The notes under the pieces were generated by a model. It was given only the letters and a program-made list of their open reading frames with translations. It was not told the origin of the DNA and did no database searches. Source: a virus (Duplodnaviria > Caudoviricetes). From it: DNA of 64,000 nucleotides. A program made the position numbers and the translations under genes. This document shows, in pieces, positions 26,473-29,926 of the stretch. Position 1 is the first letter of the stretch. The number at the start of each line of letters is the position of its first letter. The stretch spans positions 40,491 through 104,490 of the IMG/VR virus record IMGVR_UViG_2866816733_000004; one strand, given 5' to 3'.

Positions 26473-28137
26473 TCATCGGCGGATGTAGCCGTTCACCACC
26501 ATCGGCAGTGACGCGTCCACGCCCGCCATGTTCAGCACGCCCTCGTCCCGCGGGTCACCGATTGAGTGTCCGTTCGCTGCCATCGCAGCGATCACCACCC
26601 GAGCGTCCCCGTTGACCGCGCGCCGGTACGAGGTGAGCGCCTGCGACGGATGCTGTCGGCCCGCCCACGTCTCGTTGTCAGTGAGTACCAAGATGCCGTC
26701 GACGTGGAGCTTCTCGCGCTGCGCCCACTGGAACGGCAGAGACAGGTCAGTCCCACCACCCGACGGAGACCACCGGCCAACCTCACGCAGGTTCGTGTGT
26801 GCCGTCACCCGGGAGGAATGGACGCTGGTGTCGACGTCGATGACGTGAACGTTGCCGCCCTCGATCCGGTTGAGGATCACCGCCATCGCGTTCGCGACCT
26901 CGTAGCAGGACCCGAGCGGCACGCCACCCGAGCGCACACCGGCCCATGACATCGACCCGGACGAGTCCACGGCGATGAGCAGCCGATGGCCGGACGGCTC
27001 GATGTGGCCGAATGACAGCTCGTACGCCTCTTCCAGCGCGTCCACGATCGCGGGAACCGGCGACCAGGTCTGGAAGTCGGCGCGCGGGTTCGGCTGCGAC
27101 CGCCCGGCCTGGTAGACACGCACCGCCAGGAACAGGTCCATCGGGTGGATCCGCGCCTTGGAGAGCGCGTCGGCGTTGGTGAGCCGCGCCGCAGCGAGGC
27201 GGGTCGCGTCACTCATCGGCTTGAGCGTGCCGAGCCTGGTCATCCTGGCCAGGTTCCGGATGAGCGCGGTTATCCCGATCGTGTCGACGAGCTCATCCCA
27301 CACACCCGCGTCGGTGAGCACGGCGTCGGGCAGGAACTCCCACGGCACGCCGCGGTCCTGGACCACGTCGATCGCGTCGACCGGGTTGGTGACGGCCTGC
27401 GCAGCGAGGAACGCGTCAACGGCCGGCACCTGCGTGCGAACGTCAGCGTCGGCGACGTTCCCCGCGATCCACCCGAACAGCGCACGCCGCTCCGGAGTAT
27501 CAGCCTTCGGGTGCGCGATCCGCAGCGCGTCCCGTAGCGCGAACGCCTCACCCGAAGACGTTTTACGCTGACGCGCCTTGCACACCCGCCACGCCACCTG
27601 GTCGACTTCACCGTTCAGGAACCACGACCCGAGGGCGGTCCGCATCGCGCGGCCGATGACCGGGGCGGTACCGCCGCTGGTGGCCTTGCCGGCGAGGTTT
27701 TTCCAGTACCCGAAGTACGTTGCGAAGTGGTCGGTGGTCCGGGCGACCTGCGCAAGAGACACCTTGACGGCCTGCTTAGTGTCGGCGTCCCCGCGGGCTG
27801 CAGCCGCGGCGAGCGCGAACAGCGCGGGACGGTTCTTCGGCGCCCGCGGTGGACGCGCCGTCGAGATTTCCGTTGCCGTCTTTACGACACGGACACCGTC
27901 GGCCTGAACGGCATCGAACACGACCCCGGCATTGTCGGCAGTGAGCTGGTCCTCGCCGACGTAGTAGGTACCGCCCGTTGTGCCGAGGATCAAGAAGTCC
28001 TCGAGCTTGGTCCACAGGTCCTTGGCGAATCCGTACCCGCCGGCGTTGTTGCGGACCTGCTCGGCCTCACGGCCAGGAATCGGCTGGTTCTGCGGCGTCT
28101 GGATGGTGGACACGGACGCGAGAGGATCACGGGCCAT
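26473..28137 (-). CDS. rsr: Ro60/TROVE-domain RNA-binding protein with vWA domain
   Basis: NNAGGYGF, FLILGTTGGTYY, LRIAHPK, ALIRNLARMT, ARIHP, AVDSSGSM (MIDAS), GGTDLSLP, LTDNETWAG; GGAGG RBS. Confidence 0.93.
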   Translation of the reverse strand: MARDPLASVSTIQTPQNQPIPGREAEQVRNNAGGYGFAKDLWTKLEDFLILGTTGGTYYVGEDQLTADNAGVVFDAVQADGVRVVKTATEISTARPPRAPKNRPALFALAAAAARGDADTKQAVKVSLAQVARTTDHFATYFGYWKNLAGKATSGGTAPVIGRAMRTALGSWFLNGEVDQVAWRVCKARQRKTSSGEAFALRDALRIAHPKADTPERRALFGWIAGNVADADVRTQVPAVDAFLAAQAVTNPVDAIDVVQDRGVPWEFLPDAVLTDAGVWDELVDTIGITALIRNLARMTRLGTLKPMSDATRLAAARLTNADALSKARIHPMDLFLAVRVYQAGRSQPNPRADFQTWSPVPAIVDALEEAYELSFGHIEPSGHRLLIAVDSSGSMSWAGVRSGGVPLGSCYEVANAMAVILNRIEGGNVHVIDVDTSVHSSRVTAHTNLREVGRWSPSGGGTDLSLPFQWAQREKLHVDGILVLTDNETWAGRQHPSQALTSYRRAVNGDARVVIAAMAANGHSIGDPRDEGVLNMAGVDASLPMVVNGYIRR

Positions 28138-28150
28138 CATTGGCCTCCGA

Positions 28151-28184
28151 GGTGTTCGACCCGCCACGAAGGCGGATGTGGGGG
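28151..28184 (-). promoter_or_regulatory. Permuted Ro-binding-like hairpin in rsr leader
   Basis: Minus strand CACATCCGCC-TTCGT-GGCGGGTCGAAC directly before the GGAGG RBS. Confidence 0.55.
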
Positions 28185-28202: not shown

Positions 28203-28348
28203 GGGGAGGGCGGATGTGGTGGCGCCTGCCGGGTTTTTAGACCAATGCGCTACCTGGCTGCGCTACCGGCCGACCAGGTCGGCCGAGCAGGATTTGAACC
28301 TGCGACCTTTGGTTCCCGATAACCGACGGGCTTCGACCCGCCCTCCCC
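28203..28348 (-). ncRNA. yrlA: YrlA-type Y RNA with tRNA-like domain
   Basis: Terminal stem GGGGAGGGCGG-GTCGAAG / CACAT-CCGCCCTCCCC; T arm GCAGG-TTCAAAT-CCTGC, closed acceptor-like stem, D arm GCGC-AGCCAGGTA-GCGC; adjacent to Ro60. Confidence 0.85.
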
Positions 28349-28376: not shown

Positions 28377-28457
28377 GGTGTCTGCACGGATGTGGGAACG
28401 ACCGCCGGAGGGCTCTATGCGAAAGATAACCGACGGTCTTCGACCCGTGCAGGCACC
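28377..28457 (-). ncRNA. Second Y RNA (short, no tRNA domain)
   Basis: Terminal stem GGTGCCTGCACGG-GTCGAAG / CACAT-CCGTGCAGACACC; shares CCGTCGGTTATC with YrlA. Confidence 0.75.
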
Positions 28458-28876: not shown

Positions 28877-29926
28877 CTAGAACTCGATGTCGTTCATCGG
28901 GTTGTTCCTCCACTGATCTACGGCTCGGATGTAGACGAGGAGCACGGGGGAGTTGGGGTTCCAGCGACCATGCTTAGCGATCTCAGAGATAGGGACGCCT
29001 GCTGCGTAAGCGGTCGAGGCTGAGCCTGCCCGGAGCCCGTGGGAGGTGTACTTCGCGGGAAGGTTGGCGAGGACGCCACGGCGGTGGACGATATCGCAGG
29101 CGGACTTGCCTGTGAGGCGTACGGCGACTTTGCCGGCACTGTTGGGCTCGCCTCCAATTCGCCCGTGGCGGTCGACGGGGCGGAACAGAGGACCGTCCAC
29201 CAGGCCCCGCTCGGCGAGGCACTCCTTCCATCCGTTGACGGCTTCGACCGGGCACATGTCGGCGCGCTTGCTGCGGGGGATGGCGACCCTGATGCCGCTG
29301 GCTTCCTGGTCGGTCTTCGACCGCTTTACATAGACGCTGAGCCCCTCGGGGGTTTCGATGGCGTCGTCCTGGTCGAGGCCGACGAGTTCGGAGCGGCGCG
29401 CCATCATGTTGAAGCCGAGGAGTAGGAGTGCCCGATCGCGTACGCCCTGCAGGGTCCTCAGGTCGCAGGTCGCGATCATGGCACGCAGCGCGTCGGGCAT
29501 GATCGGTGTCGCCTGCTTCTCTCGGTTGCCGTCCTCGGCCCACTGCCTCCGGTAGGTCTTGAGGGCTTTGAGAGGTTTCTCGCTATCAGGTTCGTCCTGG
29601 CAGCCAGCGTCTGTGTGCTTGGAGCGGATCGTGGAGATTGCCTGAGCAATGGTGTTGGGGGCGCTCTTGCCCCTGCACATGTGGTTGACGTACTCGGTGA
29701 GTGTCTGCGCGGTGGCAGGGAGGTAGACGCGTCCTTCGTGCTCACACCACTCGCGGAAGTCCTTCCACGCCCGGTCGTATGCGATGCGGGTGTTCTCGGC
29801 GGTGGAGTTGATGAGACGCTCAGCGGTGTCGGCGCTGATGGTGAAGTCGATGTCGCTGTACGCGACGGGCGGCGGCTCGGTAGGGCGAACGACGATGGGG
29901 GAGGAGGTGACCTCTAGGTCGGACAC
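28877..29926 (-). CDS. Tyrosine recombinase (Cre-like)
   Basis: NTRIAYDRAW SAM-like domain, RDRALLLLG...RRSEL, RSKTDQ, HGLRAG, HGRW, catalytic Tyr in LVYIR. Confidence 0.9.
   Translation of the reverse strand: MSDLEVTSSPIVVRPTEPPPVAYSDIDFTISADTAERLINSTAENTRIAYDRAWKDFREWCEHEGRVYLPATAQTLTEYVNHMCRGKSAPNTIAQAISTIRSKHTDAGCQDEPDSEKPLKALKTYRRQWAEDGNREKQATPIMPDALRAMIATCDLRTLQGVRDRALLLLGFNMMARRSELVGLDQDDAIETPEGLSVYVKRSKTDQEASGIRVAIPRSKRADMCPVEAVNGWKECLAERGLVDGPLFRPVDRHGRIGGEPNSAGKVAVRLTGKSACDIVHRRGVLANLPAKYTSHGLRAGSASTAYAAGVPISEIAKHGRWNPNSPVLLVYIRAVDQWRNNPMNDIEF

What the first reader, a model, noticed from the sequence alone, without database searches (positions are those of the whole stretch)
28238..28319. 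The YrlA tRNA domain is a nearly complete circularly permuted tRNA-Pro(CGG)
Seen on the minus strand: the 3' half CGG-GA-ACCAA-AGGTC-GCAGGTTCAAATCCTGC-TCGGCCG-A-CC precedes the 5' half CGGCCGG-TA-GCGC-AGCCAGGTA-GCGC-A-TTGGT-CT. Rejoining gives a 5-bp anticodon stem with loop CT-CGG-GA, a C1:G72 pair and A73, which are bacterial tRNA-Pro features. The end reads ACCT, not ACCA. Inference: recent derivation from tRNA-Pro, or a specific mimic of an anticodon-cleaved tRNA-Pro.
Basis: partly seen in the sequence, partly recalled or inferred. Interest (0 to 1): 0.7.

Follow-up and report, generated by a model that had tools for sequence, protein, structure and literature searches.

The report
YrlA Y RNA mimicking whole tRNA
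Just upstream of this actinomycete's Ro60 gene lies a known kind of small RNA (YrlA) whose core is a complete tRNA written back to front; here it spells a proline tRNA, but relatives spell a dozen other tRNAs, so the proline identity looks incidental, while the complete anticodon-arm mimicry across the family is the more interesting point.

Summary
On the minus strand, 28318-28277 (tRNA positions 34-75) precedes 28272-28239 (positions 1-33). Joined in silico, they give a flawless 76-nt cloverleaf that ARAGORN calls tRNA-Pro(CGG).

The element is a YrlA-class Y RNA (28348-28203) next to rsr/Ro60, of the actinobacterial type studied in M. smegmatis. That YrlA resembles a circularly permuted tRNA is already in print (Chen 2014; Wang 2018).

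The proline reading is only weakly supported:
- Without the anticodon arm, the body is 74-79% identical to the three host tRNA-Pro. It is 70-75% identical to Val, Ile, Arg, Ala and fMet. The tRNA-Pro are 88-91% identical to each other.
- Close relatives read CGG, CCG, UCG or CGU at that place.
- "A73" covaries with base -1, as an eighth acceptor pair.
- In 76 Actinomadura YrlA modules, 75 permute into ARAGORN-valid tRNAs of 13 "isotypes". The body does not follow the triplet (3/76 matches; chance about 5).

What I did not find in the papers I could read: many relatives, including actinophage copies, carry a closed 7-nt anticodon-like loop (C32 U33 NNN R37 A38). The window's clade has that loop opened between positions 33 and 34.

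The scan has noted YrlA-like permuted tRNA mimics on other DNA before, but not this point.

The parts
28203..28348 (-). Whole YrlA-class Y RNA, about 146 nt. Its 5' and 3' ends pair to form the Ro60-binding stem.
   Evidence: Rfam YrlA 39.1 bits, E 6e-7. My own model R1 scores 166.7 bits. Structure covariation. Coordinates.
28338..28348 (-). Basal stem, 5' strand. It pairs with 28203-28213.
   Evidence: Helix 1: all 10 pairs show compensatory changes.
28332..28337 (-). GUCGAA, which with G28331 forms the GNCGAAN0-1G Ro60-binding motif of bacterial Y RNAs.
   Evidence: Invariant in 11 relatives. The motif is defined in Chen 2014, PMC4201824.
28323..28331 (-). Lower helix, 5' strand. It pairs with 28224-28232, with one C.A mismatch.
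   Evidence: Helix 2: 7 of 8 pairs show compensatory changes.
28319..28322 (-). UUAU, part of the conserved GGUUAYC junction motif. It links the Y stem to the tRNA body.
28314..28318 (-). CGGGA, the equivalent of tRNA positions 34-38: the 'anticodon' CGG, then G37 and A38. It is the 5' side of the open loop.
   Evidence: Its C is also the last base of GGUUAYC.
28309..28313 (-). Anticodon-stem strand 39-43. It pairs with 28241-28245.
   Evidence: Helix 3: 5 of 5 pairs show compensatory changes.
28304..28308 (-). Variable loop 44-48 (AGGUC). C48 pairs with G15.
28287..28303 (-). T arm, positions 49-65.
   Evidence: Helix 4. Together with the V loop it is identical to the Actinomadura initiator tRNA.
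28280..28286 (-). Acceptor stem, 3' strand (66-72).
   Evidence: Helix 5: 7 of 7 pairs show compensatory changes.
28273..28279 (-). A73, C74, C75, then UGGU, capping the acceptor stem. A73:U-1 and C74:G-2 extend the stem to 9 bp, closed by a 3-nt loop.
   Evidence: In the window's clade, 73:-1 covaries as A:U, G:C, C:G and G.U.
28266..28272 (-). Acceptor stem, 5' strand (1-7). By analogy with M. smegmatis YrlA, RNase P would be expected to cut just 5' of C28272.
   Evidence: The cut site is inference only.
28246..28265 (-). U8, A9, the D arm (stem GCGC/GCGC, loop with G18 G19) and A26.
   Evidence: Helix 6. A GCGC D stem occurs only in the host's Pro and Ala tRNAs and one stray Arg tRNA.
28241..28245 (-). 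Anticodon-stem strand 27-31.
28239..28240 (-). CU, the equivalent of C32 U33. It is the 3' side of the open loop.
28233..28238 (-). A-rich linker (AAAAAC) back to the lower helix.
28224..28232 (-). Lower helix, 3' strand.
28203..28213 (-). Basal stem, 3' strand.
28380..28455 (-). A second, shorter Y RNA (YrlB-like). It has the same Ro60-binding stem and GGUUAUC motif but no tRNA body.
   Evidence: R1 match of 53.7 bits with the tRNA part deleted (L039:1677-1752). Sequence.
26473..28167 (-). rsr, the Ro60 ortholog (TROVE plus Ro60 vWA domains).
   Evidence: Pfam PF05731 at 1.8e-21 and PF25045 at 2.1e-39.

Best explanation
This is an ordinary member of the actinobacterial and actinophage branch of the known YrlA Y RNAs.

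Shown:
- The RNA's two ends pair to make the Ro60 (Rsr) binding stem.
- Its interior is a full tRNA body in permuted order: positions 34-75, a cap, then positions 1-33.
- In effect the Y stem is inserted into the anticodon loop between positions 33 and 34.
- Relatives have the same body, with the Y stem entering either there ('open loop') or between positions 28 and 29. The second arrangement leaves a closed 7-nt anticodon-like loop.
- The triplet in that loop differs from copy to copy. In this copy and two close relatives it reads CGG on a somewhat tRNA-Pro-like body.

Inferred:
- The RNA is co-transcribed with a second Y RNA and rsr, and is bound by Rsr.
- Its tRNA-shaped end serves as a handle or decoy for a tRNA-binding partner.
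- It may be cut by RNase P and given a CCA end, as M. smegmatis YrlA is.
- The proline look is a lineage-specific accident of drift in a GC-rich loop. It is neither a recent copy of tRNA-Pro nor the conserved function.
For: Identity as YrlA:
- rsr is adjacent on the same strand.
- Rfam YrlA gives E 6e-7.
- The GNCGAAG motif and all six helices are supported by covariation.
- Tertiary-pair positions are kept: U8:A14 in 75/76, and 15:48 covaries.

Family-wide property, not special to this copy:
- 75 of 76 parsed Actinomadura modules permute into full-length ARAGORN tRNAs carrying 13 different triplet isotypes.
- The nearest body isotype equals the triplet isotype in 3/76, against a shuffle mean of 5.0.

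Closed loops:
- Of 38 closed loops, 28 have C32, 34 have U33, 34 have R37 and 33 have A38, while positions 34-36 are free.
- Unconstrained folding gives a 7-nt loop in 30/38.
- The two bases after N26 pair with 42-43 in 37-38 of 38 (CC/GG in 12, CU/AG in 24, UU/AA in 1).
- The same design occurs in Mycobacterium phage LinStu and Gordonia phage Cashline and in other actinobacterial genera.

Weak proline signal:
- Body identity is 0.79, 0.75 and 0.74 to the host tRNA-Pro, 0.70-0.75 to five other isotypes, and 0.88-0.91 among the tRNA-Pro themselves.
- C1:G72 occurs in 32 of about 88 family members, whatever their triplet.
- 73:-1 covaries.

Against: - The window copy combines every classical tRNA-Pro identity mark.
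- Its body does rank first against tRNA-Pro.
- Two relatives keep both features (A. sp. WMMA1423, L040, and A. roseirufa, L044; body 0.77-0.82 to Pro).
- NGG triplets are the commonest class in the genus, 15/76.
- G37 follows G36 almost without exception (24, 3, 3, 44). Some selection on a GG-containing loop is therefore possible.
- No expression, end-mapping or binding data exist for this organism.
Confidence: 0.75

Rival explanations
1. Specific tRNA-Pro mimic. In this clade the open loop (CU / CGG-GA) together with C1:G72 and A73 is selected to engage a proline-specific or G36-G37-specific partner. Candidates are ProRS, TrmD, or an anticodon nuclease or toxin aimed at tRNA-Pro. The RNA would imitate a tRNA-Pro nicked after U33, acting as a decoy or as a tether to Ro60.
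For: - All E. coli-type tRNA-Pro identity elements are present (the list of elements is from established knowledge).
- The nearest body isotype is Pro.
- CGGGA is kept in L040, L044 and L049 while the anticodon stem covaries.
- NGG is over-represented and G36 is linked to G37.
- Hughes 2020 (PMC7790460) proposed that the YrlA tRNA-like domain may competitively inhibit an anticodon nuclease.
Against: - The nearest relatives read CCG, UCG or CGU at the same place.
- The C is part of the conserved GGUUAYC motif.
- The spacer length varies, so the register shifts.
- A73 is G or C in relatives that keep CGG (L044, L049), and it pairs with base -1.
- Closed-loop CGG copies elsewhere in the genus sit on bodies that are not Pro-like and have G1:C72.
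Confidence: 0.15
2. Recent derivation. The tRNA module was copied or gene-converted from a host (or element-borne) tRNA-Pro(CGG) not long ago.
For: The top three global alignment scores are the three host tRNA-Pro. The D arm of relative L044 is identical to that of host tRNA-Pro(UGG).
Against: - Body identity is only 74-79%, against 88-91% among the tRNA-Pro.
- The acceptor stem differs at 3-4 of 7 positions per strand.
- The V loop and T arm match the initiator tRNA exactly, not Pro.
- The whole RNA aligns end to end with relatives that are not Pro-like.
Confidence: 0.05
3. A working permuted tRNA gene. As in some algae and one archaeon, the transcript would be circularised (for example by RtcB) and reopened at the acceptor stem to give a real tRNA-Pro.
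For: The halves are in the right order. The acceptor stem has 7 bp and ACC is encoded. RtcB exists in the genome.
Against: - RtcB is on another contig, not at this locus.
- The flanks form a conserved Ro60-binding stem, not a splice motif.
- The host already has three normal tRNA-Pro, including CGG.
- Relatives spell 13 isotypes without matching bodies.
Confidence: 0.03

Closest known systems
Mycobacterium smegmatis YrlA (Chen et al. 2014, PMC4201824)
   Same: - About 147 nt, encoded just upstream of rsr together with a second Y RNA (YrlB).
- Ro60-binding stem carrying the GNCGAAN0-1G motif.
- tRNA-like module in the order T arm, 7-bp capped acceptor stem, D arm.
- C74 is encoded. In M. smegmatis the RNA is cut by RNase P and completed to CCA.
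   Different: - Processing of the window RNA is untested.
- Here ACC, not just C, is encoded, and 73/74 pair with -1/-2.
- The paper interprets the extra hairpin seen in many YrlAs as a variable arm ('V'). In the actinobacterial copies I examined it has the position and the 7-nt loop signature of an anticodon arm. In the window's clade it is opened.
Salmonella Typhimurium YrlA, crystal structure 6CU1 (Wang et al. 2018, doi 10.1101/312249); Rfam RF02553
   Same: An L-shaped tRNA mimic with all tRNA tertiary pairs. It is described in that paper as resembling a circularly permuted tRNA with a closed acceptor stem, and its anticodon stem is made by the RNA's 5' and 3' portions.
   Different: - The Salmonella RNA has a 6-bp acceptor stem and is stated to lack the anticodon loop. 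Its anticodon stem runs on into a further 7-bp helix.
- The window RNA scores only 39 bits against the family's cut-off of 69.
- None of 151 sampled genomes of the class passes that cut-off.
Canonical bacterial tRNA-Pro(CGG), host copy on contig C286 of the same genome
   Same: C1:G72, A73, U8-A9, a GCGC D stem, the AGGUC variable loop, the UUCAAAU T loop, and the loop residues U33, CGG, G37 and A38.
   Different: - The order of the halves is permuted, the acceptor end is capped and the loop is open.
- Body identity is 43/57.
- The acceptor, anticodon and T stems differ.
Circularly permuted tRNA genes of Cyanidioschyzon merolae and Thermofilum (cited in Wang 2018), and two-piece tmRNA from permuted genes (from my own knowledge)
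   Same: The 3' half is encoded before the 5' half, and the acceptor end starts out as a closed loop.
   Different: Those transcripts are processed into working RNAs by dedicated enzymes. Here the flanks are a conserved protein-binding stem, and nothing indicates re-joining.

Membership tests
YrlA / bacterial Y RNA | Encoded next to an rsr (Ro60, TROVE) gene | tested here: met
   rsr at 26473-28167 on the same strand, 35 nt downstream of the RNA's 3' end.
YrlA / bacterial Y RNA | The 5' and 3' ends pair into a stem carrying GNCGAAN0-1G on the 5' strand | tested here: met
   GUCGAAG at 28337-28331. Helices 1 and 2 covary.
YrlA / bacterial Y RNA | Internal tRNA-like module in the order T arm, capped acceptor stem, D arm, with tRNA tertiary positions | tested here: met
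YrlA / bacterial Y RNA | Reaches the Rfam RF02553 gathering score (69 bits) | tested here: not met
   39.1 bits, E 6.2e-7. No genome of 151 sampled in the class reaches it, so the model appears not to cover this branch.
YrlA / bacterial Y RNA | Expressed and bound by Rsr | not testable with these tools
   No sequencing run was listed.
tRNA-Pro gene | Contiguous cloverleaf with free acceptor ends and a closed anticodon loop | tested here: not met
   ARAGORN finds no tRNA in the native window. It calls one only after in-silico permutation.
tRNA-Pro gene | Identity elements C1:G72, A73, G35, G36, G37 and G15:C48 | tested here: met
   All are present in the sequence. The element list comes from established E. 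coli ProRS/TrmD work, not from a test here.
tRNA-Pro gene | Isoacceptor-level similarity to the host's tRNA-Pro (0.88-0.91 among themselves) | tested here: not met
   0.74-0.79.
tRNA-Pro gene | Proline features conserved in orthologs | tested here: not met
   The triplet, N73 and the D stem all vary among the nearest relatives.
Processed permuted tRNA gene | Termini form a splice or ligation motif, and a contiguous mature tRNA is made | not testable with these tools
   The termini form the conserved Ro60-binding stem. No RNA data are available.

The most novel reading that the evidence does not exclude
YrlA RNAs of actinobacteria and their phages mimic the whole tRNA, anticodon arm included. 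Most carry a closed 7-nt loop with C32, U33, R37 and A38 and a freely varying triplet. The Y stem enters the anticodon stem at 28/29.

Several lineages, the window's among them, have instead an opened loop with the Y stem at 33/34. Such an RNA looks like a tRNA nicked after U33.

If this is functional, these RNAs present a lineage-specific anticodon to a partner that reads anticodon loops. Such a partner could be an anticodon nuclease or toxin (with the RNA as decoy or inhibitor), a modification enzyme or a synthetase. That would bring Ro60 and its exonuclease to the partner. The published view is that YrlA lacks an anticodon loop and that the extra hairpin is a variable arm.
Probability: 0.3. 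Interest if true: 0.7.

Novelty: new variant of a known kind. Interest (0 to 1): 0.45.

Why it matters
The partner of the tRNA-like end of YrlA is still unknown.

If the actinobacterial and phage copies really display a full anticodon arm with variable triplets, the search narrows to proteins that read anticodon loops. The published idea that YrlA blocks an anticodon nuclease then becomes directly testable with natural variants (closed against open loop, CGG against other triplets).

For the narrow claim, a tRNA-Pro copy, the result is mostly deflating. The claim should not be used to infer proline-specific biology.

Tried and rejected
- **Native-orientation scans.** ARAGORN, and Rfam at gathering score, find nothing. 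Only the E-value mode shows YrlA.
- **Single-sequence MFE folding**. It does not recover the D arm or the anticodon stem and pairs CGGG with an upstream CCCG. I set it aside in favour of the comparative structure.
- **My first idea, that CGGG (28318-28315) pairs with the downstream CCCG (28233-28230).** Rejected. The CCGG there pairs with the 5' strand of the lower helix, which covaries strongly. A transient alternative pairing cannot be excluded.
- **Body-versus-triplet association across 76 modules.** None found.
- **Class-wide Rfam search**. Several hits were tandem tRNA genes (Asn, Gly), the false positive that Chen 2014 warned of, and I discarded them.
- **Expression.** No RNA or DNA run was listed for this stretch.
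- **Literature.** The Sim and Wolin 2018 review (PMC6047535) and the supplements of Chen 2014 are not held. I therefore could not see how M. smegmatis or phage YrlA hairpins were drawn.
- **Promoter scan.** No sigma-70-like site was found. The one terminator-like hit lies on the plus strand and is the complement of the A-rich linker.
- **One parser error.** L040 was mis-typed as 'closed'. Read by eye, it is open, CU + CGGGA, with one C.A mismatch in the stem.

Full report
**What is there.**
- Read on the minus strand, 28348-28203 is a 146-nt RNA gene whose ends pair.
- Directly downstream on the same strand is a 564-aa gene with TROVE and Ro60-vWA domains, that is, rsr.
- Rfam's YrlA model matches 28329-28219 at 39.1 bits, E 6e-7, below its cut-off of 69. 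Nothing passes at gathering score, and ARAGORN sees no tRNA in the window.
- Rejoined, they make a 76-nt sequence that ARAGORN draws as a perfect cloverleaf and names tRNA-Pro(cgg). It takes that name from the triplet alone.

**Organism and relatives.**
- The window lies in a 10.2-Mb, 805-contig genome.
- The closest Rsr loci are all Actinomadura or Spirillospora, at 74-85% protein identity.
- I built a covariance model from 11 relatives. It finds YrlA-type RNAs in 68 of 104 genomes of the genus (this tally includes one unpublished genome, G116, which I did not read).
- I fetched about 70 loci and aligned 118 matches.
- On 106 distinct rows the six helices are 96.6% paired, against 36-49% when partners are slid. 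Of 39 pairs, 35 show compensatory changes.
- The anticodon-stem analogue covaries in all five pairs.
- The helix below it uses the conserved CCGG at 28232-28229. The 'anticodon' CGGG is therefore not locked in a helix. It sits in a 9-by-8-nt internal loop together with the conserved GGUUAYC motif.

**Is it tRNA-Pro?**
- I ran ARAGORN on the whole genome and parsed 67 tRNAs position by position.
- Leaving out the anticodon arm, the window module is 45/57, 43/57 and 42/57 identical to the three chromosomal tRNA-Pro.
- It is 42.5/57 identical to one tRNA-Val, and 40/57 to Val, Ile, Arg and Ala. By my hand count it is about 42/57 to the genus's initiator tRNA.
- For scale, different isotypes in this genome average 0.535, with a 99th percentile of 0.74. 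The three tRNA-Pro are 0.88-0.91 to one another.
- So Pro ranks first, but by a few positions only: the GCGC D stem, C1:G72 and the UUCAAAU T loop. This is far from a recent copy.
- The variable loop plus T arm (22 nt) are identical to the initiator tRNA of Actinomadura, which is why a BLAST of the RNA lit up tRNA-Met genes across the class.

**Is CGG conserved?**
- Only partly. Among the 14 open-loop members of the window's own sub-family (the GGGUCGAAG...GGUUAYC type), positions 34-36 read CGG in 4, CCG in 4, UCG in 2, CGU in 1 and CCC/UCC in 3.
- The spacer between GGUUAYC and the stem varies by one or more bases, so the register slides.
- The first C is the last base of the conserved motif.
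- A73 is A, G, C or U in these relatives and always pairs with base -1 (A:U, G:C, C:G, G.U). C74 likewise pairs with base -2.
- In the capped RNA, 'A73-C74' is therefore helix, and the ACC-U ending is half explained by that.
- C1:G72 is common in the whole family, 32 against 48 with G1:C72. It occurs with GAU, CAU, GAA and CUU triplets.

**The family-wide picture.**
- I parsed 76 distinct Actinomadura modules into tRNA positions and permuted each.
- ARAGORN accepts 75 as full-length tRNAs, with 13 triplet 'isotypes': Pro 15, Arg 12, Met 7, Lys 6, Ile 6 and others.
- The isotype nearest to the body equals the triplet's isotype in 3 of 76. Shuffling gives 5.0.

**Closed and open loops.**
- About half of the modules (38) are not open at the loop. 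Just 5' of the variable loop they carry a 3-5-bp hairpin with a 7-nt loop.
- In these 38, C32 is present in 28, U33 in 34, a purine at 37 in 34 and A38 in 33, while 34-36 take all four bases.
- Unconstrained folding of that segment gives a 7-nt loop in 30 of 38.
- The two bases that follow the D stem and N26 pair with the two bases after the hairpin in 37-38 of 38: CC/GG in 12, CU/AG in 24, UU/AA in 1. GC/GC, CG/CG and CA/UG occur in other copies.
- This makes a 5-bp anticodon stem split 2+3, with the Y stem entering between positions 28 and 29.
- A 4-5-nt variable loop with a covarying 15:48 pair still follows. The hairpin therefore sits where an anticodon arm sits, not where a class II variable arm would.
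- The same closed design is in Mycobacterium phage LinStu and twice in Gordonia phage Cashline, and in other actinobacterial genera.
- The 36 open-loop copies keep C32 (27), R37 (34) and A38 (29) but less often U33 (17).
- G37 goes with G36, and a base other than G at 37 (mostly A) with other bases at 36 (24, 3, 3, 44), as in real tRNAs. Related copies are not independent, and runs of G would produce the same pattern.
- The open copies L043 and L046 read UCGGA, exactly the 3' part of the closed loop CUUCGGA of relative L048. This suggests that open forms arose from closed ones. That is inference.

**What is already known.**
- Chen et al. 2014 described YrlA as a tRNA mimic. They showed that M. 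smegmatis YrlA, with a 7-bp acceptor stem, is cut by RNase P and gains CA to complete a CCA end. They also noted a less conserved hairpin upstream of the T arm, which they called V and equated with the variable arm.
- Wang et al. 2018 solved the Salmonella module. They wrote that most YrlAs 'resemble circularly permuted tRNAs', that YrlA 'lacks the anticodon loop', and that YrlA may derive from dimeric tRNA transcripts.
- Hughes et al. 2020 suggested that the tRNA-like domain might competitively inhibit an anticodon nuclease.
- In the papers I could read, I found no statement that YrlA carries an anticodon arm or loop. The 2018 review and the 2014 supplements were not available.

**How it most likely works.**
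- Shown: the fold, the neighbourhood, and the family-wide permuted-tRNA design.
- Inferred from the M. smegmatis and D. radiodurans work: transcription with the upstream YrlB-like RNA (28380-28455) and rsr; binding of Rsr to the terminal stem; use of the tRNA-shaped end to recruit or distract a tRNA-binding partner.
- RNase P cutting before C28272 and completion of the encoded ACC to ACCA are possible. They are uncertain because 73/74 are paired with -1/-2 here.
- RtcB is in the genome but on another contig.

**Verdict.**
- The YrlA and permuted-tRNA reading is right but already published.
- The tRNA-Pro reading holds at sequence level for this copy and two relatives. It is not conserved and is not evidence of recent derivation.
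- The by-product, complete anticodon-arm mimicry with closed and open forms in actinobacterial and phage YrlAs, is a modestly new variant of a known kind and gives a concrete handle on the unknown partner.
- No claim here rests on the unpublished genomes G037, G048 or G116. They enter only the tallies.

Noticed in passing
L047:1501-1641, L048:1501-1640, L050:1501-1641, L062, L065, L068, L078-L081 (Actinomadura); L141:1186-1338 (Mycobacterium phage LinStu); L140:1186-1324 and 1334-1467 (Gordonia phage Cashline): These YrlA copies carry a closed 7-nt anticodon-like loop (C32 U33 NNN R37 A38) on a stem split 2+3 by the entry of the Y stem at positions 28/29. The triplets include GCA, UCG, AUU, GAU, CAU, GAA, CUU, UGC and UUG. 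Published work calls this hairpin a variable arm, or says YrlA lacks an anticodon loop.
   Followed up: partly
L063, L064, L075, L092, L094, L100, L056, L077, L082, L066, L059, L087, L057, L061, L088 (two matches each, about 300 nt apart): In the second Actinomadura sub-family (CCCGGUGCGCAGG...AUACUUC type), loci carry two tandem tRNA-bodied Y RNAs, one closed-loop and one open-loop, with different triplets. In five species the closed copy keeps UUCGGG(A/U/G), that is, CGG plus G37, on a body that is not Pro-like.
   Followed up: partly
window 28380-28455 (-): A second, shorter Y RNA has the same Ro60-binding stem and GGUUAUC motif but no tRNA body (YrlB-like). My model matches it with the tRNA part deleted.
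   Followed up: partly
window 28319-28337 (-): The 5' strand GGUCGAAG...GGUUAUC closely recalls the 5' strand of vertebrate Y RNAs (GGUCCGAAG...GAGUUAUC). The vertebrate sequence is from my memory only and was not checked with a tool.
   Followed up: no
G000 contigs C493:1073-1537, C188:28611-28895, C263:9376-9639, C431:4566-4811: Tight clusters of atypical tRNA genes, for example Val(tac), Gln(ctg), Gly(tcc) and an odd Pro(cgg) within 470 bp on C493. Their sequences are unlike the chromosomal isoacceptors. They look like mobile-element or phage tRNA arrays, or contamination (the assembly is rated 6% contaminated). The C493 tRNA-Val is the nearest tRNA to 14 YrlA bodies.
   Followed up: no
L140 (Gordonia phage Cashline 28382-32962); window 28877-29926: In this temperate phage a tyrosine integrase gene sits next to two YrlA genes and the Ro-like gene. 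This is the same neighbourhood as in the window, where a phage-integrase-family gene lies upstream of the Y RNAs, though in Cashline the integrase is on the opposite strand. It fits the window's rsr/Y RNA set being element-borne. By tblastn, 357 actinophage records encode a Ro-like protein, all below 40% identity to the window's.
   Followed up: partly
G000 whole genome: The usual Actinomadura initiator tRNA, whose T arm is identical to the YrlA T arm, was not found in this assembly by a 20-nt probe with up to 2 mismatches. ARAGORN reported one initiator-like tRNA-Met with an extra base in the T stem.
   Followed up: no
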